From: Clostridia bacterium | GTDB lineage: Bacteria > Bacillota > Clostridia > Oscillospirales > Acutalibacteraceae | Assembly (NCBI GenBank): GCA_017503785.1 | Contig: JAFVSK010000018.1 | Span: forward strand, 106,079 to 170,078 | DNA length: 64,000 nt | Direction: 5' to 3' | Part shown: positions 9 to 53,140 of the stretch, piece by piece | How positions within the stretch are numbered: the stretch's first letter is position 1 | Layout of the letters: each line of letters opens with the position of its first letter | Program-made: the position numbers and the translations under genes | Notes under the pieces: model-generated | Told to the model about the DNA's origin: nothing | The model's database searches: none | Seen by the model: the letters and a program-made list of their open reading frames with translations, nothing else

Positions 9-238
9 GAGGCACCCTCCGTAAGGAAGGTGCCTCAGTTATATTCGCCTTGCGGCGAGTGATATTGCTTCGCAGTGATATTATGCTACGCATAGTGATA
101 TTGTCCTTCGGACAGTTTATAGGGCGAATATAATATCACTGAAACCGCAAGGTTTCAATATAACTTTGCCGTTAGGCAAAATATAACTGTGAGACCTGCC
201 TCACAATATCACTTAATACATTTATCTTTGAGATAGGT
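9..238 (+). repeat. Multi-hairpin intergenic element, copy A (possible structured RNA or miniature mobile element)
   Basis: Hairpin GAGGCACCCTCC-GTAA-GGAAGGTGCCTC lies at 9-36. AGT[T/G]ATATT occurs at 37-45, 58-66, 74-82 and 94-102, each followed by a short GC-rich hairpin. AATAT[C/A]ACT occurs at 132-140, 157-165, 180-188 and 205-213, each preceded by a hairpin. Nearly identical by eye to 8602-8830. The left edge is close to the window start. Confidence 0.7.
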
Positions 239-249
239 AGTATTTGAAA

Positions 250-322
250 GTAGGGGACGATGCCCACATCGTCCCGCCAAGGCTTGTACCAACGCGGGGG
301 GAACTCCCTCAACGAGGGAGCC
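250..322. repeat. REP-like GTAGGG-hairpin element
   Basis: GTAGGGGACGATG-CCCA-CATCGTCCCGCC hairpin plus a conserved tail (AAGGcTTGTACCAAcGCG..GGAACTCCCTC). The same family recurs at about 10 other sites in the window. Confidence 0.8.
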
Positions 323-7387: not shown

Positions 7388-7395
7388 GCACAACG

Positions 7396-7421
7396 AAAAC
7401 CGCCGTAAGGCGGTTTTTTTG
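7396..7421 (+). terminator. Rho-independent terminator
   Basis: AAAACCGCC-GTAA-GGCGGTTTTTTT. Confidence 0.85.
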
Positions 7422-7542
7422 TTGTGTTTGTACTCATGCGTGACAGCCCCCCTACCCAATTGTACAAAAAACGGCAGGTTTTGTCGGGGTTGCATCGCAG
7501 GTGATCTTTATGGTATAGTATCGTGGTAAAGGAGGCGTTACC

Positions 7543-8586
7543 ATGACTTGTAAACGCTGGTTAGCGGCGGCTCTGTGCTTTTGCCTGCTGCTGACGTTAG
7601 GCGCCTGCGGCAGCGAGCCCGCAAGCAGCACGACCACCACGGTGGCTACCACTACCACCACGGCCGCCACGGCCGAAAACACCACCACCACGGCGACGGA
7701 AGCCACGGTCACCACCACAACCACCACAACCACCACCGCTGCGGTCACCACCACGGTGACTACGGTGAAAAAGCCCGGTATCTCCACCGGCAGGGTCACC
7801 ACCACCACGGTGACCACCACCACAACCACCACCGTGCCCGCCGGACCCTACGAGGGGCCGCTCAAATATCGGCACAACGCGGGCAAGGCCGTCATCATCG
7901 GCTGCGATGAAACGAGCGAGCCCGTGGTGATCCCGAGCAGCATCGACGGAAATCCCGTTACCAACATTGAAAACGGCGCGTTTGAGGGGTGCACGTGGCT
8001 TGTCGGCATCACCCTTCCCGATACGGTGAAGCGCCTTGGCGGTTTTGCTTTTAAGGGCTGTACCGCGCTCACCGCGGTGGATATCCCGAACAGTGTTACC
8101 GAAATCGGCGACGAAGCGTTCCGCGGCTGCACCGAGCTGGCAACCGTGACCTTTCCGCGCAGCTTAAAAGAACTGGGCGAATATGCGTTTTACGGTTGCG
8201 CCAAGCTGACGGCCGCCAACCTACCGAACGGCATCACGAGCATTGGCCGTGCCGCATTTTGCGATTGCAAGGCGCTTGCCGAGCTTACGCTGCCGAGCAG
8301 CCTCACCCACTTCGGCAATTCGGTGTTTTACGGCTGCAAGAGCCTCACCGTGGTGATCTTCCCGAGCAAGGCCACCACCATCAGCGGCGAAATGTTCCGC
8401 GGCTGCTCGGGGCTGACCACCGTGACCATTCCGGCGGGAATTACCAGCATTGGTAAAAACGCATTTTTCAATTGCAAGGCCCTCACCACCGTGCATTACG
8501 GCGGCAGCGAGGCCGACCGCAACAGCATCACGGTGTACGACGGCAATGATGCGCTGTCCTCCGCCGCGTGGAATTACGCGAAATAA
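7543..8586 (+). CDS. Lipoprotein with Thr-rich linker and BspA-type leucine-rich repeats
   Basis: Lipobox LLLTLGAC. About 70 aa of poly-Thr/Ala/Val linker. About 9 repeats of the pattern L..v.iP.sVt.IG..AF..C..L (about 23 aa each). Confidence 0.8.
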   Translation: MTCKRWLAAALCFCLLLTLGACGSEPASSTTTTVATTTTTAATAENTTTTATEATVTTTTTTTTTAAVTTTVTTVKKPGISTGRVTTTTVTTTTTTTVPAGPYEGPLKYRHNAGKAVIIGCDETSEPVVIPSSIDGNPVTNIENGAFEGCTWLVGITLPDTVKRLGGFAFKGCTALTAVDIPNSVTEIGDEAFRGCTELATVTFPRSLKELGEYAFYGCAKLTAANLPNGITSIGRAAFCDCKALAELTLPSSLTHFGNSVFYGCKSLTVVIFPSKATTISGEMFRGCSGLTTVTIPAGITSIGKNAFFNCKALTTVHYGGSEADRNSITVYDGNDALSSAAWNYAK

Positions 8587-8601
8587 CGAAAAACCGCCGT
8601 A

Positions 8602-8830
8602 GAGGCACCCTCCGTAAGGAAGGTGCCTCAGTTATATTCGCCAAAGGCGAGTTATATTGCTTCGCAGTTATATTATGCTACGCATAGTTATATTGCCCTT
8701 CGGGCAGTTTTAAGGGCGGATATAATATCACGAAAACCGATAGGTTTTCATATCACTTTGCCGAAAGGCAAAATATCACTGTGAGACCTGTCTCACAATA
8801 TCACTTATTATTCTTATCTTTGAGATAGGT
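8602..8830 (+). repeat. Multi-hairpin intergenic element, copy B
   Basis: Collinear with 9-238: same first hairpin, AGTTATATT x4, then AATATCAC[T/G]-type 9-mers x4, and the same terminal TTATCTTTGAGATAGGT. Hairpin loops differ from copy A (TTGC to AAA, GCAA to GATA, GTTA to GAAA) while stems are kept. Confidence 0.75.
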
Positions 8831-8952
8831 TAATTTTAAAGTATGTAACCCACTATGACACTTTCAAACCGAAAGTGTCAATTTTTATATAAAAAGAAAG
8901 TAGGGAGAACACTTCTTTACGAAGTGTCTCCCTAAGGCGGTTTTTTTGTTGT

Positions 8953-9066
8953 GTAGGGGCAAGGGTTTGCCCTGTAGGGACCGACGTCCTCGGCGGTCCG
9001 CCATGGATTGTACAAATGCGTGGGAAACTTCCCCCGTCATCGGCGTTGCCGTGACAGCCCCCTGCA
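8953..9066. repeat. REP-like GTAGGG-hairpin elements (cluster)
   Basis: GTAGGGGCAAGGGTTTGCCCTGTAGGGACCGACGTCCTCGGCGGTCCGCC, then the conserved tail ..TTGTACAAATGCGTGGGAAACTTCCCCC, then GTTGCCGTGACAGCCCCC. Confidence 0.75.
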
Positions 9067-21226: not shown

Positions 21227-21509
21227 AAAAGGCCCCTCCCCGAGGGGGCTGTCACGGCAACGCCGTGACGGAGGGAGTTTCCCACGCGTTTGTGCAGCCC
21301 CCGGCGGGACGATGTGGGCATCGTCCCCTACGATGCGGATTGCCGGCCACGTAGGGAACGACCCACACGACCCCAAACCAACACCGTAGGGGGCAATGTA
21401 GCGAAAAGGCCCCCTCCCCGAGGGGGCTGTCACGGCAACGCCGTGACGGAGGGAGTTCCCCACGCGTTTGTGCAGCCCCCGGCGGGACGATGTGGGCATC
21501 GTCCCCTAC
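21227..21509. repeat. Two tandem composite REP-like units between the portal and capsid genes
   Basis: Units at 21227-21336 and 21403-21509. Each has CCCTCCCCGAGGGGGCTGTCACGGCAACGCCGTGACGGAGGGAG, a spacer, and CGGCGGGACGATG-TGGG-CATCGTCCCCTAC. Confidence 0.85.
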
Positions 21510-21559
21510 TGCAATTTCAATAGGAATCCCGCCACAGCGGCACGTATTAACGCACGGCG

Positions 21560-26534: not shown

Positions 26535-26585
26535 ACAGGAGAAAAAGCGGGGGTTTTGCGGTCACCTTTGGGGCACCTTGGCATA

Positions 26586-26624
26586 CCCTCGGCGGGACGA
26601 TGTGGGCATCGTCCCCTACGATGC
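26586..26624. repeat. REP-like GTAGGG-hairpin element inside the repressor leader
   Basis: CCCTCGGCGGGACGATG-TGGG-CATCGTCCCCTACGATGC. Confidence 0.8.
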
Positions 26625-28747: not shown

Positions 28748-28893
28748 ACCCTCCCCGAGGGGGCTGGCACGGCAACGCCGTGACCGGGGGAGTTTTCACG
28801 CATTTGCACGACCCTCGGCGGGACGATGTGGGCATCGTCCCCTACGGTCGCTCAACCCTTGGCGGACCGTCAAGGACGCCGGTCCCTACGATG
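28748..28893. repeat. Composite REP-like elements
   Basis: CCCTCCCCGAGGGGGCTGGCACGGCAACGCCGTGACCGGGGGAG, then CGGCGGGACGATGTGGGCATCGTCCCCTAC, then GGCGGACCGTCAAGGACGCCGGTCCCTAC. Confidence 0.8.
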
Positions 28894-32824: not shown

Positions 32825-35800
32825 TTATGCGTTCTTCTTGCGTTTCTTGTAGATCACGAAGAAGATGATGGCCGCCGTCAGCAGCAGCACGCCGCCAATG
32901 ACACCCCAACGCAGGGTCTTGTTCGCCCAGAACTGTACGATAAAGGCGTTTGAGTTGATCGAAACGTTGCCAATCGTTACAGTGTATTCATTCGCCTTAC
33001 CATCGTTGCCGCTGGCACGGTCAGTACACTCGATGCGCACGTTCTGATACAAGCCCTTGTCGATGGTAAAGGTGATTGCACCGTTACCCACAGTCAGCTC
33101 ATCAGCCAGCTTATCATCAACCAGATTGACCAATTCCTTCAGCTTATTACCGTCCTCATCCACTAAGTATACCAACAGCGAATACAGCGCACCGCCGTCG
33201 TCAGTGGGGATCAGCGTAACAACCTGCTTATCGGTCTGATATCTACCGTCTTCGGTAATACCCGACACCGTTACCACAGGCGGGGTACGGTCAACAACGA
33301 AGTTGATGGCCGCATCCTTTACGTCGCTGAACGCGTCGTTCTTTGCCTTATCGGTAGACGACACCACCAGGATGTATTCGCCCTCGGCCTCAAACAGTTC
33401 CTTCTTCACCGTGTAGGTGTAGCGCTTCCACTGGCCCACACCGCCGGTGGACTCAACCGTGTAATCGGTATCCTTCACCAGCTCCACGCCGTTGAGCGTA
33501 ACGTTGTACTCTGTCAGCACGTCGGTGTTGATCTCGTGGATCACCACGTCGCTCGTTACGTTCTTCACGTAGTACTGCTTCAGCAGCTCCTGAACGTCCT
33601 CAGACAGCTCGTAGGTGGAGCCGAAGCGGTTCACCGAGAAGAGAATAGACTTTTGGGTGGTTCTGCCTGCCATGTCGGTCAAGCTGACCGACAGCGTGTA
33701 GATATCGTCGATCTCCTTCTTCTCCGCAAAGTTGTCGAAGGTGAAGGTCTGACCGAAGGTGCGGCCGGCGCGGATATCGTCAACGGACTTACCGGAGATC
33801 TTCACGCCCTTGCGGTTTACGCCGGTCAGCGTAATGGTTACGTTGTTCTCGTCCCAGTTGGTATCCGAGTAGGTCACCACGGGGATCACGTCGCCGGCAT
33901 TGGCCGACTTGTCGGCCACACCGGTGATCTCCAACGCGGGATCAATGTTATCTACAACGAAGTTCTGCTTCGCAAAGTCAGCAGCATCGTTGCCCGCCAG
34001 ATCCTTCATCGCAATATCGAAGGTGTACTCCGCATCGGCGCTGTAGGTGATAGTGGCGGTATGCGTATCGCCGTTGGATACCCAAGCAGTGGGCGCAGGA
34101 GCTGCAACCGTTGTCAGGGGATCCTGGGCCGTGATATCAAAGGTCACGCGATCAGCGGCGAAGTTGTGCTCCGTGATGGTCACAGTTGCCACACGCGTTC
34201 TCTGATAATACTTGCCGTTGTACACGTCGTTGTTATCGTAAGTAACCACGATCACCGGCAACGTCTTATCAATGGTGAACTCATACGGCTGCACCGAATT
34301 ACCGGTTTCAACCTCTTCGTTCGCATTACCGGCTTCGTCGGTGTACTTCACACTAAACGTGTAGTCGCCGTCTGCAACGTAGTCAATGGTAGCAGTCCAA
34401 GTGGTATCGTCCAAATTGCCGGTACCCTCCGTCTTGGTCCAGCCAACCACGGCAGGAATCACGCCATCGGTATTGGTAATGTCAATTTCCACCTTTTCCT
34501 GGTTGAAATTGCGCTCGGTAATCGTGATAGTAGCCTTTCTGTCGGCCTTGAAGTACTTAACGCTGCCAACGTCGGCCTGGTTGTTATCATACGATACGTT
34601 GATCTTCGGCTTCGTGATATCGATCTGGATATCCTTATATGTGGTAATCGTCGTGTTACCGGCGTTATCGGTAGCAGTTACCGTTACACAAACGTGGTTG
34701 CTATTGAAATTGCTTGCAGGGATCACGATTTCGCCGTTCCAAGAATGGATCAACTTGTCGTACTCGCCACGCACCACTTCGCCATCAACATCGGCTTGCA
34801 GTTCAGCGTTTTCCATCAACGCCGCCGTATATTCAGCATTAATATCGGCAGCAACAATCTGGTAACTAATCTCTTTCAAACCGGAATAATATCCGTTCAG
34901 ATCAGCCGTGGCACCCACATATTTAGGATCCTGCACAAACAGCTTCACAGTTACGTCGCTGTTGTTGAAACCTAGAGCATTAGCGCCTTGAGGTGCAATG
35001 GTGATTTTCGGCGGTTGCTGTTCTTCCGAGCCATCGGGAGCCTTATCGTCCACCACGATACCACGCGAATGGATAATGGTGGTATTAGTCGACTTGTCCT
35101 CCACGCGCACATACACGATCACACGCGTGTTCGGCTCAATTCGGAAGCCGTTTTCAGCATCGTATTCCACCCAGTTTTCCTCTAATTTAAACGCCTCGTC
35201 GTGGTTGACGATCTGATACTTAACGGAAGCTACACCACTGGTCTTGTCAAAGGCCGACAGCTTCACCGTAATCGTTGTTTGCGAGAAGACGTTAAACGCG
35301 ATTTCGTTCAGATCCTCCGGCTTCACCGATTTATCGCCAACAAAGATATCCAAATCGCCGGTCAACGGAGCGGTCTTATCCACCGTAAAGGTATCGACAA
35401 CCTCGTCCTTCTGTGCATTGCCGGCCAAATCCTCGCCGGTGATCTTAATGCTGTAGTTTGCTTCGGTCTCAAACGGAATTTCGGTAACAAAAACATTCGT
35501 CGCTTCTTCCGTCCAAGTGGCTTCCTGCAAATATTCCGCATAATTAAGCACGGTTTCGCCCTGCTTAAACTCGGTAATCTTCACCTCGTCGCCGGTCGTC
35601 TTATCATATTCGAAACCGGTCACTTCCAGGTTCATCAGCGTAGCATTAAAGTTGTGCTCCTTCACCGTTACCTTAACGGTCTTGTTCTTATCGTAGAAAG
35701 CACCGTTAGCCGGCTCAATCGAAATTTCCGGCTTCGTTGTATCCACCGTAAACTCCTTCTTGTAACTGGATGCGTTACCCGAACGATCGGTATATTCAAT

Positions 35801-38800
35801 TGTCAAGGTATAATCAGCATCCTCGTTGAACGTGGGAAGAACAGCCTCGTATACATCCGCACTGCCCTCGACCTTATTAAACGTCAGATCCTTCAACAAA
35901 GTCGGCGTTTCCGGATTCTTGGTCTCGTCATCATACACCTTTGTCAGATATACCTTCAGCTTTTCCTCCACTAGATCCGCAGCTCCAAAGAAGTTGGCTT
36001 CCTCAATAACGATGGTAGCCACGGTGTCGTGGTTAGCCAAGTAAAGCTTGTTATCCACATTATTGGTGTAGAACTCATTGGTGTATTTCACGCTCACTTC
36101 GGGAGCAATGTTGTCCACCACAATAGTTTTTTCGACTCCGTCGATGTCGTCATCAACAAATTCCGTTGAGTTCTGCGATTTGTCGGTAGCCACGAACGAC
36201 ACCTTACCACGGAACTGAGCAGGAATCGTAAACACAACCTCATCCGTTACGCCGTTCACCGTCACGGAAGTATCGTCTTTGCCCGTGTTACCGGAATTGA
36301 TAGCATCTGCATCTACCGTATACTTATAGGTAAAGGTATCCAGACGGGAGGTCGTATCAGTAGCCTTCAGCGTTACCGTTACTTCATCCTTGTAGAACCC
36401 AAACACCTTACCCAAACCAAAAGTAACCGCATTCCACAGCACATTCTCAAATTTGGGCGTATACGTAATGCTCAAATCGGTAGGAGCGGTCTCATCCACC
36501 GTAAAGGTGTCAACAACCTCGTCCTTCTGTGCATTGCCGGCCAAATCCTCGCCGGTGATCTTAATGCTGTAGTTCGCTTCGGTCTCAAACGGAATTTCGG
36601 CAACCCAAACATTCGTTGCTTCTTCCGTCCAAGTGGCTTTCTGCAAATACTCCGCATAATTAAGCACGGTTTCGCCCTGCTTAAACTCGGTAATCTCCAC
36701 CTTGTCGCCGGTCGTCTTATCATATTCGAAACCGGTCACTTCCAGGTTCATCAGCTCAGCAACAAAGTTGTGCTCCTTCACCGTTACCTTAACGGTCTTG
36801 TTCTTGTCGTAGAAAGCACCGTTAGCCGGCTCAATCGAAATTTCCGGCTTCACCGTATCCACCGTAATGATCTTAGAAGTGTATTGCGCCGTACTGGCTT
36901 CCAAAGCATCGTCAGCCTTAATCGTCGAGTCGTTGGTGGAGAAATCCGCATAGTTAACCGTAATCACATAGTCGGCATCATCTTCAAGCGGAATAACCAA
37001 CGTATGCTTGTCGCCCTCGTGCTTCCACTCAAACACCGTGGTTTCGTTTACATCGGCAAAACGCTGCTCCGCATCTTCTGCAGGAAGATACTCAATCTTC
37101 GTCACCTTGCCTTGGTCGTCTGTCTTTGTTACTAAAATACCAACTTCATGAACGCTCTTACCGATAGGTGCTCCCTGCTCATCGGTGTACTTATAGCCCT
37201 CGAAGAAGTTCACCTCTTCAATGGAGATCTTAGCGTCAACACTGCCATCGTAATACGCCTGCGTTGCCGCGTTGAAATCCATCACGAACGAGTCGGCATT
37301 TCTAAAGAACACGGTGGTGTTCTCATCCTTCGGCTTATAGGCAATGTCGATCTTGGGCCCTAAGGAATCTACCACAAGAACCTTATCGCCCACCATCACA
37401 TTGCTCAACCCGGCTTTGTTGGTGGCCGTAAAGGTTATCGCCTTTTGATTCAGTTCAGCCGGAATCGTAAACGTTTTGCTTACGGTTGCATCATCCGTTG
37501 CTTCAATTGCAATCTCGCCTTCAATATCTTCGCCAATCTTATAGCTAAATTTATCCAGCTTGGAAATATCATCTGTAGCAGTAAGAGTTACCTCCATCGA
37601 AGGCTTATAGAAGCCAAACGTAACTGCTTCGATTATTTTCTCAACGATCGGCTGAGAATACTCGATCTTCAATTCCGTCGGAGCGGTCTTGTCGATCCAA
37701 ATCTCGCCAACATTCACCGCTTCACTGATATATCCGGTTTCCTCGTGCTTCAGATAGATAGCCGCCGGTGTGTTTTTGCCTTCGGTCGCTATGGTGATCT
37801 TGTCCATCCAAGTGGCATCAAACAAATCGGAATTCGAAATCTTATACCCTTCAGCAGGAGTAATATCTACGTCGATCGTATACCAGCCGCTCGCCGGAAC
37901 ATCAGGGACAGAATACTTATCCTCGAAATCGTTGGTGTTCACTTTCACAGTAGCTTCGGCAGTAATATCATTATAGTTATTGCCGCCGGCAAGCGTTGCC
38001 TTTACAGTAAAGGGGCCCGTTTTGCCGCTGTTAAATGTGAGCGCACCACTCGTATTGTTAATGGAAGCAATATCGCCATCTACTACTTCATAGGTGACCG
38101 TGCCACCGGACTGACCACCCAAGGCTGTAACCGTCAGCGTGGTTTTCGAGCCATACTGCACGCTGTATTCGCTTTGGGTAAAAGCAAAACCGGTTTGATC
38201 AGCCTTAATGGTATTGATCACATAGGTGGTAGAAATAGCTTTATAGTTATTATCCCCCGCACGGGTAGCCGTGACAGTTGCCGTACCGCCGGCCTTGATG
38301 GCTTTGACGTTACCGTTTTCGTCAACTTCCACATACTCCTGACCCGCGGTCACTTCATACGTGACCTCACCGGTGGATTGCCCACCGGTAGCCTGATTGA
38401 TTACGGTGCTGTTGTAGGGCAGATCAGGCATGGTTGCATTTTCAAAAACAAAGCCGGTTTGTTCCTCTTTGGCAATGTATACGTTGAACGGGACCGCAGC
38501 CGACTGGGCCGGCGCAACCTCAACGTCTTTATCTTCATAGTTGGCCTTGGTCACCTTGACAAACACAGTGTACGAGCCTGCGTCGACAACTGTGGGGATT
38601 TCCTCTTGCCATGCGCCATCCACGCCAAGCTTATACTTAATCGTGTAGTCAGCACCTTCGTTGCCGCTTACCGTTACCACCTTTTGCGGATTACCGGTAT
38701 AGATACCCTCAAGACCCTCAACCTTGAGACTGCCGAGGACCAATTCGCCCAAAGCGATCTCTGAGGTTACCGTTTGAACGTAAGGACGATAATTGTCACC

Positions 38801-39787
38801 TCTATCAACGGTAATCGTCACCTCATAGCTACGCACTTCAGCAAACTTCGGAATGGCCGAATACTCATTTTCGTCACCCGTGATCGTATACGTAACCTTG
38901 TCATCGGGCAGAAGTGTACCCTTCAAGATTGCCACGGGGAATTTCTCTCCCGTGTACTTGTTGATGGTTTTCTCAATGGAGATACCGGTGATTTCCGCAA
39001 GAGTCACGGACAACTTAACTTCCTTTGTCAGCGCCACGTAACCGGCTTTCGAAAGCTGGACATACACCGTTTTCTCACCAACGTCGGTAATCGAAACAGG
39101 CGTCTCCGTGAAATCAATGTTGTTTTCGCTGTACTTAACAGTATAGCCCTCTGCAGTTACCAAAGCCGTGTGCGCCTCACCGTCGTACACGCCGGTATAG
39201 CCCTCAACACTAACGGAATCCTCCAGCGGATATACCTGCACGCCGTCCTTCATCAGAACGATCTTCTCGCTGGGCGTCACCGCGAAGGTAACTTCTTGCT
39301 CGTACACAGCATCGCCGTCCCAGTCGAACTCATACACTCTGGTGGGCTTGAGTCCCTGAGCGGCAAACGTTTCCAGATCCTCGGGCGAAACAGGGAACCA
39401 CAGCTCAACGTAGCTGCCGTCGCCGTCGGCAGTGTCCGAAAAATCATACGGCGTGCCGTACTCTGCATCGAGCCCCTTCTTAATTCTAAAGCCCGCATTG
39501 TCGGCAATCTCAGTGGGAGCAGTCATCTTAATACCGACCCACCAGCCGGCAGCACGGTTCAAGCCCGCGTCAGCATCGACCCACTGTAACGTAGTCTCTT
39601 CCACCAGCACCGAAACCTTCGAGGGATCCTCGTCAGCCACCGTACCGCCGGTAAAGGTCGTTACCGTGCCGTAGTCCGTGCTTGTCGATGCAAACACGTT
39701 TGCCGGGATCATCGCGATCACCAGCAAAATCGCCAAAGCGATAGCTACCAGGCGGTCGAACGATCGTCTCTTCGCGTAATTTTTCAT
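32825..39787 (-). CDS. Giant (2,320 aa) surface protein with many Ig-like repeat modules, N-terminal signal peptide and C-terminal TM anchor
   Basis: Signal peptide ..IAMIPANVFAST. Recurrent module boundaries of the type (V/I)D.T.P....(V/I) occur at least 12 times. C-terminal WGVIGGVLLLTAAIIFFVIYKKRKKNA. No LPXTG motif seen. Confidence 0.85.
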   Translation of the reverse strand: MKNYAKRRSFDRLVAIALAILLVIAMIPANVFASTSTDYGTVTTFTGGTVADEDPSKVSVLVEETTLQWVDADAGLNRAAGWWVGIKMTAPTEIADNAGFRIKKGLDAEYGTPYDFSDTADGDGSYVELWFPVSPEDLETFAAQGLKPTRVYEFDWDGDAVYEQEVTFAVTPSEKIVLMKDGVQVYPLEDSVSVEGYTGVYDGEAHTALVTAEGYTVKYSENNIDFTETPVSITDVGEKTVYVQLSKAGYVALTKEVKLSVTLAEITGISIEKTINKYTGEKFPVAILKGTLLPDDKVTYTITGDENEYSAIPKFAEVRSYEVTITVDRGDNYRPYVQTVTSEIALGELVLGSLKVEGLEGIYTGNPQKVVTVSGNEGADYTIKYKLGVDGAWQEEIPTVVDAGSYTVFVKVTKANYEDKDVEVAPAQSAAVPFNVYIAKEEQTGFVFENATMPDLPYNSTVINQATGGQSTGEVTYEVTAGQEYVEVDENGNVKAIKAGGTATVTATRAGDNNYKAISTTYVINTIKADQTGFAFTQSEYSVQYGSKTTLTVTALGGQSGGTVTYEVVDGDIASINNTSGALTFNSGKTGPFTVKATLAGGNNYNDITAEATVKVNTNDFEDKYSVPDVPASGWYTIDVDITPAEGYKISNSDLFDATWMDKITIATEGKNTPAAIYLKHEETGYISEAVNVGEIWIDKTAPTELKIEYSQPIVEKIIEAVTFGFYKPSMEVTLTATDDISKLDKFSYKIGEDIEGEIAIEATDDATVSKTFTIPAELNQKAITFTATNKAGLSNVMVGDKVLVVDSLGPKIDIAYKPKDENTTVFFRNADSFVMDFNAATQAYYDGSVDAKISIEEVNFFEGYKYTDEQGAPIGKSVHEVGILVTKTDDQGKVTKIEYLPAEDAEQRFADVNETTVFEWKHEGDKHTLVIPLEDDADYVITVNYADFSTNDSTIKADDALEASTAQYTSKIITVDTVKPEISIEPANGAFYDKNKTVKVTVKEHNFVAELMNLEVTGFEYDKTTGDKVEITEFKQGETVLNYAEYLQKATWTEEATNVWVAEIPFETEANYSIKITGEDLAGNAQKDEVVDTFTVDETAPTDLSITYTPKFENVLWNAVTFGLGKVFGFYKDEVTVTLKATDTTSRLDTFTYKYTVDADAINSGNTGKDDTSVTVNGVTDEVVFTIPAQFRGKVSFVATDKSQNSTEFVDDDIDGVEKTIVVDNIAPEVSVKYTNEFYTNNVDNKLYLANHDTVATIVIEEANFFGAADLVEEKLKVYLTKVYDDETKNPETPTLLKDLTFNKVEGSADVYEAVLPTFNEDADYTLTIEYTDRSGNASSYKKEFTVDTTKPEISIEPANGAFYDKNKTVKVTVKEHNFNATLMNLEVTGFEYDKTTGDEVKITEFKQGETVLNYAEYLQEATWTEEATNVFVTEIPFETEANYSIKITGEDLAGNAQKDEVVDTFTVDKTAPLTGDLDIFVGDKSVKPEDLNEIAFNVFSQTTITVKLSAFDKTSGVASVKYQIVNHDEAFKLEENWVEYDAENGFRIEPNTRVIVYVRVEDKSTNTTIIHSRGIVVDDKAPDGSEEQQPPKITIAPQGANALGFNNSDVTVKLFVQDPKYVGATADLNGYYSGLKEISYQIVAADINAEYTAALMENAELQADVDGEVVRGEYDKLIHSWNGEIVIPASNFNSNHVCVTVTATDNAGNTTITTYKDIQIDITKPKINVSYDNNQADVGSVKYFKADRKATITITERNFNQEKVEIDITNTDGVIPAVVGWTKTEGTGNLDDTTWTATIDYVADGDYTFSVKYTDEAGNANEEVETGNSVQPYEFTIDKTLPVIVVTYDNNDVYNGKYYQRTRVATVTITEHNFAADRVTFDITAQDPLTTVAAPAPTAWVSNGDTHTATITYSADAEYTFDIAMKDLAGNDAADFAKQNFVVDNIDPALEITGVADKSANAGDVIPVVTYSDTNWDENNVTITLTGVNRKGVKISGKSVDDIRAGRTFGQTFTFDNFAEKKEIDDIYTLSVSLTDMAGRTTQKSILFSVNRFGSTYELSEDVQELLKQYYVKNVTSDVVIHEINTDVLTEYNVTLNGVELVKDTDYTVESTGGVGQWKRYTYTVKKELFEAEGEYILVVSSTDKAKNDAFSDVKDAAINFVVDRTPPVVTVSGITEDGRYQTDKQVVTLIPTDDGGALYSLLVYLVDEDGNKLKELVNLVDDKLADELTVGNGAITFTIDKGLYQNVRIECTDRASGNDGKANEYTVTIGNVSINSNAFIVQFWANKTLRWGVIGGVLLLTAAIIFFVIYKKRKKNA
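35367..35750. repeat. Internal 384-bp duplication in the giant gene, copy 2
   Basis: Near-identical to 36483-36866, exactly 1,116 bp away. The encoded 128 aa differ at about 10 positions. Confidence 0.9.
36483..36866. repeat. Internal 384-bp duplication in the giant gene, copy 1
   Basis: See 35367-35750. Encodes TVDTVKPEISIEPANGAFYDKNKTVKVTVKEHNF...DTFTVDETAP. Confidence 0.9.
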
Positions 39788-43307: not shown

Positions 43308-45044
43308 TTATTTCTTGTACTCAAACTTCTCGTCGGCCAACAGGATCTTGTCGCCATCTTTCAGTTCAACTTCCTGACCGGCGCGCGCCTTCACACCGTT
43401 AACGAAGGTGCCGTTGGCAGCCTTATTGTCAACAATGTAGGTAACACCGTCACGAACCACAAAGCGAGCATGCACACGGCTGATATTCGTATTGCCGCCC
43501 ACGCAGTAATCAACACTGCTGCGCTCTCTGCCCACCGTGAACTCGGCCGAGCAGATCGGAATACGCTCGTTGTTGCTGGAACGCACCAACGCACCGCCGT
43601 TCACGTTCTGCGACAGAACGGTGGTTTCACCGGCGCTCTGCGACAAAACGGTGGTTTCGCCGGCGCTCTGCGACAGAACGGTGGTTTCACCGGCAGAGGG
43701 GGCTGCAGGCTTCGCAGGAGCAGCCACAGGCTTCACGGCAGCCACCGGAGCGGGAGCAGCCACAGGCTTCGCGGCAACCGGAGCCACGGGAGCAACCGGA
43801 GCAGCCACCGGAGCGGGCTGAGCCTTTTTCTTGTTCATCGAAACGATCAGAATGATAACAACAACGATCACAGCAATCGCCACAACCGCGATGATACCGA
43901 TCATCACGTACTGATTCATAGCAGATTTCTGCTCTTCCTTCGCCAGCGCGTCGATAGCCTCATCCAAAGCCTCGGCAGCATTGTCGATGGTAGCCTGCGA
44001 ATCGGCAGTCAAAGCAGCCTTCGCATCCTTCAGAGCAGCCTTCATCGCCTTATAGGACTCTTCGGTGTAATCCTGAGCGGCATAGCCCTCAGCCTTGGTG
44101 ATCAGGCTCGACAGCTCGCTGGTGTTCAGCGTAGCACCGGTGGTCGTCGTAGTAGTATCGGCGGTCGTCGTTTTGATGGGACCGGGGCCAGCGAACGAAA
44201 TGTTCAGCGCAGTCAGGTAGGTAATCAGCTCTTTACTACTAATAGCCATGAAACGGCTTCCGTCTCCTGCGGCGTTCACGCCCACCACGTTACCGTCTTT
44301 GTCTACCAGCGGGCCGCCGGAGTTGCCACCGGTGATCAGCGCGCTGTTCACTACGCAGTTAACATCTTTGTATTCATGAACTTCATAGTTGTCATCGTAT
44401 GCATCAAACTCTACGTCACCGACCTTGTTCACATTACCACTACTAATGGTAATATCGTCAATGTCGTAGGTGTTTTTAGAATCAATACTTACCAAATCCG
44501 AAGGATAACCGATAGCAAACACCTCGTCGGTCTGCTTCAATTCGTCGCTGTTGCGGATGGCCAGAGGGGTGCGAGCAATCTGCTGGCTCAGTGTCAGCAC
44601 GGCCAGGTCGAGCTCGGGGTTAGCGTTGGTGAGCTTCGCCTTCACGTAAGTACCACGATACAGCATTACGCGCAGCTCCAGCATATCCTTGATCTGAGCC
44701 GCCGTACGGTTGGTGCTGTTTTCGGCGTTGGTGAGCTTTGCCCAGTTAACATACCACTCATCCGGGAAACCGTTCGCCACGTGCTGGCAGGTTACCACGG
44801 TGGTGTCGTTCACCAGGAAGCCGGTGCCATAGTGAAGCGGCACTTCGGTAGCAGTTTCAGGGTCTTTAAACCACACCTGCACCTGTACAACGCCGTTCTT
44901 GGCCTCGGTGACAGCCTGGCCCACTTCGGCAGCATTGGCGCTGAACGCCATACCGAACACCAAGCACATCATCATGCTTACTGCGAGAATCAAGCTAACG
45001 AGCTTTGTTCTCTTTGCTTCGGGATTCTTTGTTTTGAAGAACAT
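43308..45044 (-). CDS. Fusion protein: signal peptide, trypsin-like (S1/HtrA-type) protease, helical stalk, TM helix, Pro/Ala linker, 3x GETTVLSQSA repeat, FHA domain
   Basis: Protease triad context: TCQHVANG, DLAVLTL, GNSGGPLVDKDGNVVGV. TM MIGIIAVVAIAVIVVVIILIV followed by KKK. FHA domain: FTVGRE...ISRVHARF...NGTFVNG. Confidence 0.85.
   Translation of the reverse strand: MFFKTKNPEAKRTKLVSLILAVSMMMCLVFGMAFSANAAEVGQAVTEAKNGVVQVQVWFKDPETATEVPLHYGTGFLVNDTTVVTCQHVANGFPDEWYVNWAKLTNAENSTNRTAAQIKDMLELRVMLYRGTYVKAKLTNANPELDLAVLTLSQQIARTPLAIRNSDELKQTDEVFAIGYPSDLVSIDSKNTYDIDDITISSGNVNKVGDVEFDAYDDNYEVHEYKDVNCVVNSALITGGNSGGPLVDKDGNVVGVNAAGDGSRFMAISSKELITYLTALNISFAGPGPIKTTTADTTTTTTGATLNTSELSSLITKAEGYAAQDYTEESYKAMKAALKDAKAALTADSQATIDNAAEALDEAIDALAKEEQKSAMNQYVMIGIIAVVAIAVIVVVIILIVSMNKKKAQPAPVAAPVAPVAPVAAKPVAAPAPVAAVKPVAAPAKPAAPSAGETTVLSQSAGETTVLSQSAGETTVLSQNVNGGALVRSSNNERIPICSAEFTVGRERSSVDYCVGGNTNISRVHARFVVRDGVTYIVDNKAANGTFVNGVKARAGQEVELKDGDKILLADEKFEYKK
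43608..43697. repeat. 3 x 30-nt tandem repeat encoding (SA)GETTVLSQ
   Basis: CTGCGACAGAACGGTGGTTTCACCGGCGCT repeated three times with 2-3 substitutions. Confidence 0.9.
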
Positions 45045-45145
45045 TTTCTACTCCTCCACGTTGAATTTGTTTATGTAATCGGTAATAGTACCGTTCACAT
45101 CGTCGTCACAAAAAATTTCAAATTGTGATACACTGGTCTTAATCC

Positions 45146-45165
45146 TTCGTAGAACTGATACTTCT
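45146..45165. repeat. Inverted repeat, left arm (IRL)
   Basis: TTCGTAGAACTGATACTTCT, the exact reverse complement of 46585-46604. Confidence 0.95.
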
Positions 45166-45394
45166 AAAAATGAATATATATTCCAAAAAAAGGTATAATA
45201 CACCTACTATTGCGGTTATTATATCACTCGGAACAGGGTTTGTCAATTATTCCCTGCCGGTTTTTGTCGAAAATATTAAGAATTTGTAAATTTTTGCCGT
45301 GTGAGATTTTATGCAGTTAGTATTATTCGCCGTTTGTGGTCAGCGCTGTGGTCGGAGAACTTCTCAATCTATAATCAAGAAAGGATGATTACTT

Positions 45395-49275: not shown

Positions 49276-49440
49276 CTATTTAATCAAGAAAAATGACAAG
49301 GAATGACAAAAAATACCAATCAGCCGCCCAAAAAGATAAATTTGCACATTTCGGCTCGCAAATGACAAACCGCTCGCCCATCTGTGCACAAGCAAGAGGA
49401 TTTACGCAGAACACTTACCCAGCGAAAATCCGACTGCGCT

Positions 49441-49495
49441 GTAGGGACCGACATCCTCGGCGGTCCGCCAAGGATCGTGCTAATGCGTGGGAAGC
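49441..49495. repeat. REP-like GTAGGG-hairpin element
   Basis: GTAGGGACCGACATCCTCGGCGGTCCGCC followed by AAGGATCGTGCTAATGCGTGGGAAGC. Confidence 0.8.
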
Positions 49496-50380: not shown

Positions 50381-50466
50381 AGCGGTCACCTCCTCCACAG
50401 TATACACCGTTTGTGCAACAAAAACAAGCATTTGTGCACCGTTTGTGCAAAAAAAAGCGCTGCGTA

Positions 50467-50667
50467 GGGAGACTTCTCTAAGGGAAGTCTCCCAGTTTTA
50501 TTCGCCAAAGGCGAGTTCTATTGCTGCGCAGTGATATTCGGCTAACGCCGAGTGGTATTCGCTTCGCGAGTTTTGGTGGCGAATAAAATAACACTGAAAC
50601 CGAAAGGTTTCAATAACACTATTGCCGTAAGGCAATAATATCACTCCGACAAAGTCGGAATATAACT
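50467..50667 (+). repeat. Multi-hairpin intergenic element, divergent copy C
   Basis: Same order of parts as copies A and B: a long first hairpin (GGGAGACTTC..GAAGTCTCCC); AGTTTTATT, AGTTCTATT, AGTGATATT and AGTGGTATT each followed by a hairpin; then AATAACACT x2, AATATCACT and AATATAACT each flanked by hairpins. Several stems have different sequence with pairing kept. Confidence 0.7.
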
Positions 50668-50713
50668 TGAAAGACTACCGGTTTTTATGTATAATAATTT
50701 TGAGGTGATAACA

Positions 50714-51064
50714 TTGGCTGATAGCATTTTAAGAGATAAAGCAAAAGAATTTGCAAAGACTATTGTTTTTCTCTGTCGTGATATGAAAGAAAATTGTAAG
50801 GAATCAGTTTTAATAAACCAATTACTTCGTTCTGCTACTTCAATCGGTGCGAATTTACACGAAGCACAATACGCACAAGGAACAAAGGATTTTATTTCTA
50901 AACTTGAAATAGCACAAAAAGAATGCTACGAAACTGAATATTGGCTTGAACTTCTATTTGAAACAAATTGCATGAATGAAGAAAATTATAAAGCATTACA
51001 AAACGATTGCGGTGCTATCCGCAGAATGTTAATTTCTTCTCTTAAAACAATAAAATCGAAATAG
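50714..51064 (+). CDS. Four-helix-bundle protein (23S rRNA intervening-sequence protein / Avd-like family)
   Basis: ..RDKAKEFAKTIVFLCRDM...LINQLLRSATSIGANLHEAQYAQGTKDFISKLEIAQKECYETEYWLELL is the recognisable family pattern. A TTG start at 50714 after GAGGTGA is preferred (the track ORF starts at 50687). Strongly A/T-rich relative to its surroundings. Confidence 0.75.
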   Translation: MADSILRDKAKEFAKTIVFLCRDMKENCKESVLINQLLRSATSIGANLHEAQYAQGTKDFISKLEIAQKECYETEYWLELLFETNCMNEENYKALQNDCGAIRRMLISSLKTIKSK

Positions 51065-51199
51065 GGGTTTGGGCTTACCTACAAACTCTTATGAAATAAA
51101 AAAACGCACCGGAAATATCGGTTTATCATTGGTTTCCTAAGTATGCTAAGGAAAAAAGATATATCGAAATATGGTTGCCTATAGAAAAAGCAAGATAAC

Positions 51200-51240
51200 A
51201 AAAAGTTCCAGACAGAGATTTTTCTGCCTGGAACTTTTTG
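51200..51240. terminator. Bidirectional terminator
   Basis: AAAAAGTTCCAGACAG-AGATTTTT-CTGCCTGGAACTTTTT. Confidence 0.75.
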
Positions 51241-53109: not shown

Positions 53110-53140
53110 GCTTCGCGCCTCCTCGCAGGGTACTGTATTC

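What the first reader, a model, noticed from the sequence alone, without database searches (positions are those of the whole stretch)
8602..8830. Ornate multi-hairpin intergenic element (copies at 9-238 and 8602-8830): hairpin array punctuated by a 9-mer and its reverse complement
Seen, in both copies on the plus strand:
- A 28-nt hairpin capped by GTAA.
- Four units of AGT(G/T)ATATT, each followed by a 3-7-bp GC-rich hairpin.
- A central segment ending in GGGCG(A/G)ATATAATATCAC.
- Then three hairpins (loops GCAA/GATA, GTTA/GAAA, CCTG), each flanked by AATAT(C/A)ACT.
- Then TTATCTTTGAGATAGGT.

Further observations:
- In the left half each hairpin can be drawn as ATT-stem-loop-stem-AGT (A:T, T.G, T:A feet) with 3-nt linkers, so the 9-mer spans two hairpin feet.
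- Several loops are GNRA-type only when read on the plus strand, and loop bases differ between copies A and B while stems are kept.

Two readings are possible:
- (a) A structured RNA: a string of tetraloop-capped hairpins, possibly zipped into a rod by pairing of left and right 9-mers, although position 4 of the 9-mer is often mismatched.
- (b) A miniature non-autonomous element whose two ends carry four inverted protein-binding 9-mers each, as in Tn7/Mu-type ends.

I do not recognise it as a named motif.
Basis: seen in the sequence. Interest (0 to 1): 0.75.

Follow-up and report, generated by a model that had tools for sequence, protein, structure and literature searches.

The report
Mobile hairpin-array element in terminator loops
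The ornate string of hairpins is the inner part of a small mobile DNA element of gut Clostridia that sits inside the hairpin loops of gene terminators; half of it is already catalogued as the 'Gut-1 RNA' motif of unknown function, so that motif probably needs re-reading as part of a mobile element.

Summary
Copies A (9-238) and B (8602-8830) exist as described, and there is a third, diverged copy C (50467-50667). The 9-mer AGTKATATT occurs 17 times in the window against 0.37 expected.

The motif is partly named. The left half is Rfam Gut-1 (RF01706; 66 bits in A). The right half is the same motif on the opposite strand.

The hairpin array is the 5' module of a larger mobile unit:
- B is 331 bp (8602-8932). 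It has inverted terminal hairpins and sits in the GTAA loop of an intrinsic terminator with a TA duplication. An intact copy of that terminator lies at 7392-7427.
- C carries a promoter and a PF05635 four-helix-bundle gene. A same-species contig lacks this module and shows an intact palindromic terminator at that position.
- About 25 other species show the unit split between the two arms of a host terminator, with 2-nt duplications.

No transposase is linked to the element.

Stems covary strongly, but G.T and A.C pairs are equally rare (about 1% or less each). Loops are mirrored between the halves. This favours a DNA-level role over an RNA.

Distant PF05635 genes (9 of 9 inspected) are also bracketed by inverted short-repeat arrays, which links the family to 23S rRNA intervening sequences.

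What the array does remains unresolved.

The parts
7392..7427 (+). Intact paralogous copy of the terminator that copy B interrupts (AACGAAAACCGCCGTAAGGCGGTTTTTTTGTTGTGT). It serves as an in-window 'empty site'.
   Evidence: The sequence equals the B flanks once 8602-8934 is removed, apart from one extra A in the A-run.
8589..8601 (+). A-run, left arm (CCGCC) and G-TA of the split host terminator. The TA at 8600-8601 is the left copy of the target duplication.
8602..8629 (+). P0, the 5' terminal hairpin of copy B (12 bp with one C.A, GTAA loop). It is the left terminal inverted repeat.
   Evidence: P0 stems in 60 distinct copies total 706 WC, 17 G.T and 12 A.C pairs.
8630..8705 (+). Left array of copy B. 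Four AGTTATATT words (8630, 8650, 8666, 8686) are each followed by a palindrome: H1 8639-8649, H2 8659-8665, H3 8675-8685, H4 8695-8705. This is the Rfam Gut-1 motif on the + strand.
   Evidence: (46.8 bits, 8629-8698).
8706..8731 (+). Centre: a degenerate fifth left word plus GGGCGGATATAATATCAC. GGCG+AATAWAA is the reverse complement of L1+CGCC, forming long-range helix S1.
   Evidence: (S1 appears in the minimum-free-energy fold).
8732..8805 (-). Right array of copy B. Three palindromes (8732-8749, 8758-8771, 8781-8796) are flanked by AATATCACT-type words, with R4 at 8797-8805. This is the Gut-1 motif on the - strand.
   Evidence: (39.6 bits, 8806-8720, - strand).
8806..8902 (+). Tail of copy B. 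It holds the conserved TTATCTTTGAGATAGGT, a weak outward promoter-like pair (TTGAGA 8820-8825, TATGTA 8842-8847) and a small hairpin plus T-run (8857-8879). The tail is conserved in B-type copies of other species.
8903..8932 (+). P0', the 3' terminal hairpin of copy B (GGGAGAACACTTC TTTAC GAAGTGTCTCCC). It is inverted relative to P0 (loop TTAC against GTAA) and forms the right terminal inverted repeat.
8933..8947 (+). Right copy of the TA duplication (8933-8934), followed by the right arm (A)GGCGG and T-run of the split host terminator.
9..252 (+). Copy A: P0 9-36, left array 37-113, centre 114-140, right array 141-213, tail 214-252. It is truncated or abutted at about 252 by an unrelated GC-rich repeat. 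Its left flank is cut by the window start.
   Evidence: (Gut-1 66.2 bits at 36-106).
50449..50466 (+). A-run, left arm and TA of the terminator interrupted by copy C (AAAAAAAAGCGCTGCGTA).
   Evidence: The same-species contig L148 has the intact palindrome GCGCTGCGTACGCAGCGC at this position.
50467..50667 (+). Copy C array: P0 50467-50493, left array, centre 50569-50595, right array, R4 50659-50667.
50667..51239 (+). Cargo of copy C. It comprises a sigma-70-type promoter (TTGAAA 50667-50672, 17 nt, TATAAT 50690-50695), a PF05635 four-helix-bundle gene (TTG start 50714, stop 51064) and a bidirectional terminator (51200-51239). The 3' terminal repeat and the right host arm are missing here. GC is 31-33% against 62-68% in the flanks.
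   Evidence: PF05635, 97.6 bits; PDB 2RLD.

Best explanation
Copies A, B and C belong to a family of small mobile DNA elements of gut Oscillospirales (Acutalibacteraceae, Oscillospiraceae and relatives).

Anatomy of a complete unit, in order:
1. A terminal hairpin, P0.
2. The hairpin array: 4-5 direct 9-mers with palindromic spacers, a centre, then 4 inverted 9-mers with palindromic spacers.
3. In some members, an outward promoter.
4. Optional small cargo, most often a PF05635 four-helix-bundle gene.
5. A terminator.
6. An inverted copy of P0.

Shown:
- The unit lies in the loop, at the dyad centre, of a host intrinsic terminator, with a 2-nt duplication. The two terminator arms end up on either side of it.
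- Sites are polymorphic.
- No transposase is encoded in or next to the element.
- The left array is the Rfam Gut-1 motif, and the right array is the same motif inverted.

Inferred:
- Movement is by a trans-acting enzyme that cuts with a 2-nt stagger and prefers extruded or palindromic terminator DNA.
- P0 plus the U-rich first 9-mer on one side, and P0' plus its T-run on the other, replace the terminator that the insertion splits. This makes insertions between convergent genes tolerable.

Most speculative step:
- The array acts in cis at the DNA level, not as a free-standing RNA.
- It may be a multi-site platform for a family-specific protein. The linked PF05635 pentamer is the only candidate seen.
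For: Mobility:
- An intact copy of B's terminator lies at 7392-7427. Removing 8602-8934 from around B regenerates it, and TA is duplicated.
- The same-species contig L148 (flanking radical-SAM protein 99% identical) has an intact 18-nt palindromic terminator where the window has the roughly 770-bp C module.
- In 25 loci from other species the unit (289-396 bp without cargo, 724-1430 bp with cargo) sits between a perfect A-run+arm and arm+T-run pair. The junction remainders fit 2-nt duplications: TA, AT, AA, TT, TC.
- In 12 of 26 sites both neighbouring genes end within about 30 nt of the arms, so these are convergent genes.
- The upstream flanks of 12 gene-carrying copies share no homology.

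Ends:
- The 3' end is an inverted copy of P0's arm and loop. An example is GCGAGACTTCTCATAAGGA against the reverse complement CGGCTACTTCTCATAAGGA.
- B-type copies carry a full inverted hairpin at the 3' end.

Multicopy and widespread:
- There are three copies in 64 kb.
- Several copies lie at contig ends.

Identity with Gut-1:
- The original seed sequences include the same full elements. BAAZ01000095.1 is embedded between the arms GGGGCUGCCG/CGGCAGCCCC, and BAAZ01025322.1 follows a tRNA.

DNA-level rather than RNA:
- Array stems are 897 WC / 7 G.T / 4 A.C in the left half and 1454 / 15 / 10 in the right half.
- P0 stems are 706 / 17 / 12.
- Loops are mirrored. On the + strand the left half has TTC, TAC, TGC and TTGC, while the right half has GAA, GTA, GCA and GCAA.
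- In cargo-carrying copies the array lies between a terminator-like hairpin and an outward promoter.

Link to PF05635:
- It is the only recurrent neighbouring protein family, found in 14 loci at a fixed distance.
- Of 80 metagenomic relatives of the protein, 63 have a clear array upstream and 4 more have a variant array. Only 2 of those with adequate flank have none.
- The most divergent relatives use another word, AGTTATGAT.
Against: - No transposase or autonomous partner was found. The terminal repeats are imperfect.
- Copy A's flanks are uninformative because of the window edge and the adjacent GC-rich repeat.
- Copy C lacks its right end and the right host arm.
- A tRNA/tmRNA-linked subfamily sits just after an intact terminator rather than inside a loop. 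In some species it looks orthologous, with different unit numbers. That suggests long residence and perhaps a host function.
- A plain MITE model does not explain several features. These are the very strong compensatory covariation in five of the seven spacers, the covarying long-range helix S1 and the invariant ATT...AGT 'feet'. All three are what a structured RNA or single-stranded DNA would show.
- The PF05635-binding idea rests on linkage only. About 88% of copies lack the gene.
- The in-window empty site for B is paralogous, not orthologous.
Confidence: 0.7

Rival explanations
1. A structured non-coding RNA, as Rfam files it. Each half would be transcribed inward, the left half on the + strand and the right half on the - strand. 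This would occur as read-through of the convergent host genes or from element promoters. The RNA would fold into 3-5 hairpins with A-U/U.G/U-A 'feet' and GAU/UAU linkers. It would act as a 3'-end stabiliser, a tandem weak terminator or a protein sponge. The mobile element would only be its vehicle.
For: - Rfam Gut-1 matches above or near its threshold on both strands.
- Hairpins H3, H4 and HR1-HR3 show strong compensatory covariation, with 95-100% paired against 30-60% in shuffles.
- Fold z-scores are about -7.
- In the inward sense each hairpin is followed by a U-rich word and is flagged as terminator-like.
- 12 of 26 sites lie between convergent genes, so both halves could be reached by incoming transcripts.
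- B-type tails contain a conserved leftward TTGACA-18-CATAGT promoter-like site aimed at the right array.
Against: - G.U pairs are no more frequent than A.C pairs, each about 1% or less.
- Loop composition favours the outward strands (GNA/GNRA), the opposite of the Rfam orientation.
- P0 looks like a terminator placed in front of the left array.
- Orientation relative to host genes is not fixed.
- The 'feet' are not kept in the AGTTATGAT variant.
- Helix S1 competes with hairpin H1 of the Rfam model.
Confidence: 0.2
2. A REP/BIME-like repeat kept by the host. Clusters of palindromic units would have been spread by a domesticated single-strand (Y1/RAYT-type) transposase. They would be retained because they bind a nucleoid or topology protein, or because they insulate neighbouring transcription units.
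For: - The position is intergenic, at gene 3' ends, and the family is multicopy.
- The number of units varies from 1 to 5.
- The spacers are perfect palindromes with GNA-type loops. These are very stable as DNA hairpins; d(GCGAAGC), the complement of H2, is a classic case (from my own knowledge).
- The tRNA-linked copies appear to sit at orthologous sites across species.
Against: - No Y1/RAYT gene was seen near any copy.
- REPs have a conserved palindrome sequence and no target duplication. Here the palindromes vary, the flanking words are conserved, and there is a 2-nt duplication with terminal inverted repeats.
- Cargo-carrying versions exist.
Confidence: 0.08
3. The array is a by-product of the insertion chemistry rather than a functional site. 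Repeated insertion of short fold-back DNA at one 9-bp site, each time duplicating that site, would build 9-mer/palindrome/9-mer arrays. Quasi-palindrome template switching would then keep the stems perfect without selection.
For: - The layout is repeat, variable palindromic spacer, repeat.
- The stems are purely Watson-Crick.
- The unit number varies.
- The family itself targets hairpin loops.
- The left array is nested inside helix S1.
Against: - The arrays are highly conserved in order and content across many species. H1 and H2 are nearly invariant, and 4+4 is the dominant layout in 48 cases.
- The element's own duplication is 2 nt, not 9 nt.
- No growth of arrays between close relatives was seen.
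Confidence: 0.04

Closest known systems
Gut-1 RNA motif (Rfam RF01706; Weinberg et al. 2010, PMC2864571)
   Same: The left array is this motif: three or four hairpins separated by GUGAWAU-type linkers. Copy A scores 66.2 bits against a threshold of 50. The published seed alignment contains the same full elements with their flanks.
   Different: - Rfam models about 77 nt on one strand as a free-standing sRNA known 'from human gut metagenomes only', with no function or organism assigned.
- Here the motif occurs as an inverted pair inside a 290-1430-bp mobile unit in Acutalibacteraceae and Oscillospiraceae genomes.
- The pairing statistics argue against an RNA-specific constraint.
Bacterial MITEs and modular intergenic repeats (Correia elements of Neisseria; BOX, RUP and SPRITE of pneumococcus)
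   Same: - Small, non-coding or nearly so, multicopy and intergenic.
- Terminal inverted repeats and a short target duplication (TA in Correia and RUP).
- A modular structure with variable numbers of internal units (BOX) and terminator-like parts (SPRITE; PMC10969869).
   Different: - The target is the loop of an intrinsic terminator hairpin.
- The ends are themselves hairpins.
- There is an internal mirrored hairpin array with covarying stems.
- Some members carry a promoter plus small genes.
- No parent insertion sequence is known.
- Sequence similarity to these families was not tested. The comparison of their features rests on my own knowledge and the review.
23S rRNA intervening sequences that encode S23p (PF05635), e.g. 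in Coxiella and Leptospira
   Same: - Copy C and about 12% of the family carry a PF05635 gene.
- IVSs lie in a hairpin (helix 45 or 25).
- IVSs have complementary termini and a variable run of tandem heptamers before the gene.
- IVSs are regarded as selfish elements of unknown mobility (PMC4990558).
   Different: - The target here is terminators, not rRNA helices.
- The repeats here are 9-mers spaced by palindromes, and both arrays lie upstream of the gene.
- RNase III excision was not examined.
- Most copies lack the gene.
REP/BIME elements with RAYT transposases
   Same: Clusters of extragenic palindromes in both orientations at gene 3' ends, with compensated stem changes.
   Different: - The palindrome sequences are not conserved; the words between them are.
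- The element has a target duplication and terminal repeats.
- No RAYT gene was found nearby.
Tn7/Mu-type transposon ends
   Same: Several copies of one short word in direct order on one side and inverted order on the other.
   Different: - Both arrays lie together in the 5' part of the unit, not at its two ends.
- The duplication is 2 nt, not 5.
- No transposition genes are present.

Membership tests
Rfam Gut-1 (RF01706) | Covariance-model score at or above the gathering threshold (50 bits). | tested here: met
   Copy A 36-106 (+) scores 66.2 bits. Copy B's left half scores 46.8 and its right half on the - strand 39.6, both below threshold but with E of 7e-7 and 4e-5. Related loci reach 51-74 bits, and L032 passes on both strands.
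Rfam Gut-1 (RF01706) | Expressed as a non-coding RNA. | not testable with these tools
   No expression data were available. Indirect evidence is mixed (G.U about equal to A.C, mirrored halves).
MITE (miniature inverted-repeat transposable element) | Small size and no transposase gene. | tested here: met
   Units without cargo are 289-396 bp, and B is 331 bp. No transposase family recurs near 119 loci.
MITE (miniature inverted-repeat transposable element) | Terminal inverted repeats. | tested here: met
   There are roughly 20-nt imperfect repeats, with the 3' end an inverted copy of P0's arm and loop. In B-type copies there are two inverted hairpins.
MITE (miniature inverted-repeat transposable element) | Target-site duplication. 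| tested here: met
   TA at copy B is verified against the intact terminator. The 2-nt remainders TA, AT, AA, TT and TC fit at a dozen or more loci. The 3' end is not independently defined in every case.
MITE (miniature inverted-repeat transposable element) | Presence/absence polymorphism at a site. | tested here: met
   L148 is an empty site for copy C. There is a paralogous intact terminator for copy B.
MITE (miniature inverted-repeat transposable element) | A related autonomous element with matching ends. | tested here: not met
   None was found among 119 genome loci and 80 metagenome loci. Longer members carry only small cargo genes. A genome-wide search of one host was not possible.
23S rRNA IVS / S23p element | Encodes a PF05635 protein. 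| tested here: met
   Copy C scores 97.6 bits against PF05635 and matches PDB 2RLD at 4e-29. Copies A and B do not encode it.
23S rRNA IVS / S23p element | Located in helix 25 or 45 of a 23S rRNA gene and removed by RNase III. | tested here: not met
   There is no rRNA gene in the window, and the targets are terminators. Processing is not testable here.
REP/BIME | A conserved roughly 35-nt palindromic unit and a cognate RAYT gene. | tested here: not met
   The palindromes vary, with 11-37 distinct sequences per position among 49 arrays. No such gene was found nearby. A genome-wide search was not possible.
Tn7/Mu-type multi-site ends | Binding-site arrays at the two extremities, with cargo between them. 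| tested here: not met
   The arrays are always fused, and cargo lies after the right array.
CRISPR array | Repeats of 23-50 nt, non-palindromic spacers and cas genes. | tested here: not met
   The repeats are 9 nt and the spacers are 7-17-nt palindromes. No recurrent neighbouring genes other than PF05635 were found.

The most novel reading that the evidence does not exclude
The Gut-1 hairpin array may be the local form of a general, undescribed class of selfish module.

The module would consist of a PF05635 (S23p/Avd-like) pentameric four-helix-bundle gene bracketed by inverted arrays of 7-9-nt words. It would invade nucleic-acid hairpin loops: intrinsic terminators here, and helices 25/45 of 23S rRNA in the classical intervening sequences.

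The PF05635 protein would recognise the word arrays and would be the mobility or maintenance factor. The many gene-less copies would be its parasites.

Supporting observations:
- 9 of 9 distant PF05635 genes inspected on plasmid records of cyanobacteria, Bacteroidota, Spirochaetota, Chloroflexota and Clostridia carry such inverted word arrays, many of them inside defence operons.
- The word changes with the protein clade.
Probability: 0.25. Interest if true: 0.85.

Novelty: new variant of a known kind. Interest (0 to 1): 0.62.

Why it matters
- It gives a concrete reading of an orphan Rfam family, Gut-1, which has had no organism and no function since 2010. The motif is half of a mirrored module inside a mobile element of Acutalibacteraceae and Oscillospiraceae, so its covariation need not mean it is an RNA gene.
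- It documents a mobile element whose preferred target is the loop of intrinsic terminators, often between convergent genes, and which brings replacement terminator-like hairpins. That is an unusual way for an element to limit the damage it causes to its host.
- These elements deliver promoters and small genes into the 3' ends of operons and break metagenome assemblies, which matters for annotating gut MAGs.
- It ties the PF05635 four-helix-bundle family to short-repeat arrays and to insertion into hairpin loops. This makes the old question of how 23S rRNA intervening sequences arise, and what S23p does, experimentally approachable.

Tried and rejected
- Zipper rod (left 9-mers pairing with right 9-mers): rejected. 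Complementarity at the variable positions is 417/588 against 402 +/- 5 for shuffled partners. In copy B all four pairs would carry a T.C mismatch.
- Strand assignment from G.T against A.C counts: no bias in either half, nor in P0.
- Arrays as the two separated ends of a larger transposon: no locus shows separated arrays.
- Empty sites among the 119 genome loci, found by two-flank BLAST: none. The species are too distant.
- Exact-protein look-up of YchF, to examine copy A: not on record.
- Orthologous empty site for copy B through the wzz neighbour. Relatives lack the LRR gene altogether, and the same-species contig breaks 154 nt before wzz. The paralogous intact terminator in the window served instead.
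- Viral contigs: 27 of 28 pattern hits were tandem repeats of giant viruses. Only L003 is a true copy.
- Universal outward promoter after R4: only 22 of 119 copies pass a strict consensus test, against 14 for shuffles. 15 of the 22 have the -35 overlapping R4. The promoter is therefore a property of the cargo subfamily only.
- The tyrosine recombinase at 45395-46513 as mobiliser: no link was found, and a 2-nt duplication does not fit that enzyme class (enzyme chemistry from my own knowledge).
- DnaA box, Fur box and the omega-repressor heptad (WATCACW) resemblances to the 9-mer: considered from memory and dropped as unsupported.
Full report
**1. The observation**

The two copies are as described. 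Copy A spans 9-238 and copy B spans 8602-8830. Each has, in order:
- a 28-nt hairpin with a GTAA loop (P0);
- four AGT(G/T)ATATT words, each followed by a short GC-rich palindrome;
- a centre ending GGGCG(A/G)ATATAATATCAC;
- three longer palindromes flanked by AATAT(C/A)ACT;
- the tail TTATCTTTGAGATAGGT.

The copies are 88% identical over 185 nt. They differ mostly in loops and by compensated stem changes.

The pattern is far beyond chance:
- The 9-mer occurs 17 times in the window against 0.37 expected.
- All 17 occurrences lie in A, in B and in a third, more diverged copy C, whose array spans 50467-50667.
- Folding energies are 6.5-7.8 standard deviations below shuffles, on either strand and with RNA or DNA parameters.

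**2. It is partly a named motif**

- Rfam's Gut-1 model (RF01706) matches copy A at 36-106 with 66.2 bits against a threshold of 50.
- It matches copy B's left half with 46.8 bits. It also matches B's right half on the minus strand with 39.6 bits.
- In related loci both halves can pass the threshold on opposite strands.
- Gut-1 was described in 2010 from 43 human-gut metagenome sequences. It was called a probable non-coding RNA with no organism and no function.
- The published seed alignment, read with its flanks, contains the same full elements seen here.

**3. Distribution**

All were gut MAGs of Acutalibacteraceae, Oscillospiraceae, Ruminococcus and unclassified Clostridia, from humans and ruminants.
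- The commonest layout is 4 direct plus 4 inverted words (48 cases). Copies with 1-5 units on either side exist.
- Several copies lie at contig ends, as expected for a repeat that breaks assemblies.

**4. It is a mobile insertion in terminator loops**

Three lines of evidence support this.

(a) Copy C.
- A contig from another sample encodes a radical-SAM protein 99% identical to the window's.
- In that contig the neighbouring gene is followed directly by ...AAAAAAAGCGCTGCGTACGCAGCGCTTTTTGTTATCC..., an intact palindromic terminator.
- The window has AAAAAAAAGCGCTGCGTA, then P0 of copy C, the array, a promoter, a four-helix-bundle gene, another terminator, and then GTTATCC.
- The inserted stretch has 31-33% G+C in a region of 62-68%.

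(b) Copy B.
- The sequence AACGAAAACCGCCGTAAGGCGGTTTTTTTGTTGTGT stands intact at 7392-7427.
- Around B it reads AACGAAAAACCGCCG-TA[8602...8932]TA-AGGCGGTTTTTTTGTTGTGT.
- B is therefore a 331-bp unit in the GTAA loop of a terminator, with TA duplicated.
- It ends in a second hairpin (8903-8932) that is inverted relative to P0.

(c) Other species.
- In 25 further loci the unit lies between an A-run+arm and a perfectly complementary arm+T-run of unrelated sequence from locus to locus.
- Units without cargo measure 289-396 bp, and units with cargo 724-1430 bp.
- The nucleotides left between the arms and the element fit a 2-nt duplication (TA, AT, AA, TT, TC) at the centre of the original loop.
- In 12 of 26 sites both neighbouring genes end within about 30 nt of the arms. 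These are therefore bidirectional terminators between convergent genes. In other sites only one gene ends there, on either side, so the element's orientation is not tied to host transcription.

**5. Anatomy of the unit**

- The 3' end is an inverted copy of P0's arm and loop, giving a terminal inverted repeat of about 20 nt. B-type copies have a full hairpin there.
- Cargo, when present, always lies after the right array. Both arrays therefore belong to the 5' part and are not the two transposon ends.
- Cargo types are: a PF05635 four-helix-bundle gene alone; that gene plus a small zinc-ribbon or membrane ORF; or other small membrane or secreted ORFs.
- Clustering of all ORFs around 119 loci finds only the PF05635 family recurrently linked, and no transposase. 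The PF05635 gene occurs in 14 loci on the same strand at a fixed distance.
- In the cargo subfamily a strong sigma-70-type promoter has its -35 overlapping the last 9-mer. This is not general, as only 22 of 119 copies pass a strict promoter test.
- P0 followed by the U-rich first word is scored as terminator-like in C.
- In B the reverse complement of the 3' hairpin is followed by TACTTTCTTTTT. This reading comes from the sequence itself, and the scan tool did not flag it.

**6. What constrains the array**

- Five of the seven palindromic spacers covary strongly. They are 95-100% Watson-Crick where shuffled partners give 30-60%, with up to four pair types per position. The other two, H1 and H2, are nearly invariant.
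- G.T and A.C pairs are equally rare: 7 against 4 in the left half, 15 against 10 in the right half, and 17 against 12 in P0. An RNA under selection would normally tolerate G.U.
- Loops are strand-asymmetric and mirrored. On the + strand the left half has TTC, TAC, TGC, TTAC and TTGC, while the right half has GAA, GTA, GCA, GTAA and GCAA.
- The GNA/GNRA-type loops therefore lie on the strands that read outward from the centre. That is the opposite of Rfam's orientation.
- H2 (GCTTCGC) is the complement of d(GCGAAGC), known to me as an unusually stable DNA mini-hairpin. This rests on my own knowledge and was not checked here.
- The proposed zipper of left and right words is not supported.
- A different long-range helix is supported: L1 plus CGCC, often with 1-3 more bases, pairs with the centre. 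54 of 59 arrays collected independently of the array sequence have a perfect complement of at least 10 nt. Most are this helix, in variants (T:A, A:T, C:G, TG:CA and extensions). It also recurs in the GTGAAAT-type array, with different letters.
- This helix competes with hairpin H1 of the Rfam model, and it appears in the minimum-energy folds of the + strand.

**7. The link to PF05635**

- A metagenome scan with the protein alone returned 80 relatives at 66-96% identity. Of these, 63 have a clear array upstream, 4 more have variant arrays, and only 2 of those with adequate flank have none.
- The two most divergent relatives use another word, AGTTATGAT/ATCATAACT.
- A 51%-identical gene in a faecal 'phage' record has the GTGAAAT form that matches the Rfam consensus.
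- Nine PF05635 genes at 36-51% identity were inspected on plasmid records of Nostoc, Dolichospermum, Planktothrix, Euhalothece, Bernardetia, Chondrinema, Treponema, Chlorohelix and Monoglobus.
- All nine are bracketed by tandem 7-nt (in Monoglobus, 10-nt) words upstream and related or reverse-complement words downstream. Many of them lie between genes of restriction or other defence operons.
- The Coxiella 23S rRNA intervening sequence is a selfish element in helix 45 that encodes the same protein family. It has complementary termini and a variable run of heptamers before the gene.
- The window protein matches the pentameric PDB entry 2RLD.

**8. Interpretation**

Shown:
- a multicopy, polymorphic, non-autonomous element with inverted terminal hairpins and a 2-nt duplication;
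- insertion at the dyad centre of intrinsic terminators;
- an internal mirrored array that is Gut-1 twice.

Inferred:
- a trans-acting enzyme with a 2-nt staggered cut and a preference for palindromic or extruded DNA;
- replacement of the split terminator by the element's own terminal hairpins.

Unresolved:
- The job of the array is unknown. I favour a DNA-level cis-acting site, possibly for the PF05635 pentamer. The reasons are the pairing statistics, the mirror symmetry, the placement in cargo-carrying copies between a terminator-like hairpin and a promoter, and the gene linkage.
- The RNA reading keeps about one chance in five. The covariation, the invariant 'feet' and the terminator-like look of each unit in the inward sense all fit it.
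- A tRNA/tmRNA-linked subfamily sits just after intact terminators and seems orthologous in some species. Some copies may therefore have acquired a host role.

**9. Literature**

- Searches of the held library found nothing beyond the 2010 description of Gut-1. A review of bacterial MITEs contains no mention of terminator-loop targeting, and the searches on insertion-sequence target specificity turned up no such element.
- No paper was found describing the association of PF05635 genes with short-repeat arrays. The only hint is a figure legend that lists '23S rRNA IVP' among domains associated with CRISPR arrays.
- Absence from this library is not proof of novelty.

Noticed in passing
window 244-306, 8968-9030, 49435-49497 (+); 21227-21332, 21405-21510, 26571-26620, 28749-28846 (inverted): A second, unrelated GC-rich intergenic repeat family with at least 7 copies. 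It contains the hairpin GGGACGATG-CCCA-CATCGTCCC and a conserved ...GTACNAANGCG... segment. One copy abuts copy A at 253 and another follows copy B's terminator. A same-species contig (L151) breaks inside one.
   Followed up: partly
window 7392-7427 and 8589-8601 + 8933-8955: The same 36-nt terminator sequence occurs on both sides of the BspA-type LRR gene (7543-8586). Relatives with 78-79% identical Wzz (L152-L155) lack the LRR gene between the IreB/96-aa genes and wzz. The LRR gene therefore looks like an insertion that duplicated or brought its own terminator.
   Followed up: partly
L236-L245 (plasmid records of Monoglobus, Treponema, Bernardetia, Nostoc, Euhalothece, Planktothrix, Chondrinema, Chlorohelix and Dolichospermum, plus faecal phage record MT835590): Every distant PF05635 four-helix-bundle gene inspected is bracketed by tandem short words upstream and related or reverse-complement words downstream. 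Examples are AATTCGC x4 / GCGAATT x4 in Nostoc and TTAGTGA x~17 in Bernardetia. The genes often sit between genes of type I R-M, DISARM/MmeI or helicase-methylase operons.
   Followed up: partly
L234 about 400-650, L235 about 470-725: PF05635 relatives at 66% identity carry arrays built on a different word (AGTTATGAT / ATCATAACT), with hairpin spacers and a matching centre (GGCAATCATATCATAAC). This is a possible co-variation of word and protein.
   Followed up: partly
L032, L034, L041, L060, L116, L117, L119, L121, L128 and others: A subfamily of arrays starts about 35 nt after the 3' CCA end of tRNA genes, and in L116 after a tmRNA gene. An intact A-run/stem/T-run terminator stands in place of P0. 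Some copies look orthologous across species but have different unit numbers.
   Followed up: partly
window 8852-8881 (- strand): A conserved promoter-like site (TTGACA, 18 nt, TG-extended CATAGT) overlaps the small terminator hairpin of the B-type tail. It points leftward into the right array. It is also present in L037 and, with ATGACA, in L033 and L082.
   Followed up: partly
window 45395-46513 (+), within the AT-rich island 44901-45950: A tyrosine recombinase gene (Phage_integrase plus an N-terminal SAM-like domain) lies in a 33% G+C island about 4 kb upstream of copy C. There is no tRNA gene in the window, and no relation to the element was shown.
   Followed up: no
window 51241-53142 (-): The gene whose terminator copy C interrupts encodes a protein with a weak TIR-domain match (below the Pfam cut-off) followed by MORN repeats. 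It also contains internal DNA repeats with a 69-nt period.
   Followed up: no
window 50409-50450: Three copies of TTTGTGCA(A/C) lie upstream of the radical-SAM gene. They are also present at the empty site in L148, so they are host sequence, possibly an operator.
   Followed up: no
window 35367-35666 and 36483-36782: A 300-nt direct repeat (95% identical, 1116 nt apart) lies inside the 2320-aa ORF at 32825-39787 (-).
   Followed up: no
L003 (IMG/VR contig), MT835815.1, MT835476.1: Full or partial copies of the element occur in contigs labelled viral or 'Bacteriophage sp.' from faeces. MT835815 also carries a PF05635 gene at 72% identity. Whether these are phage genomes or mislabelled bacterial fragments was not examined.
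   Followed up: no
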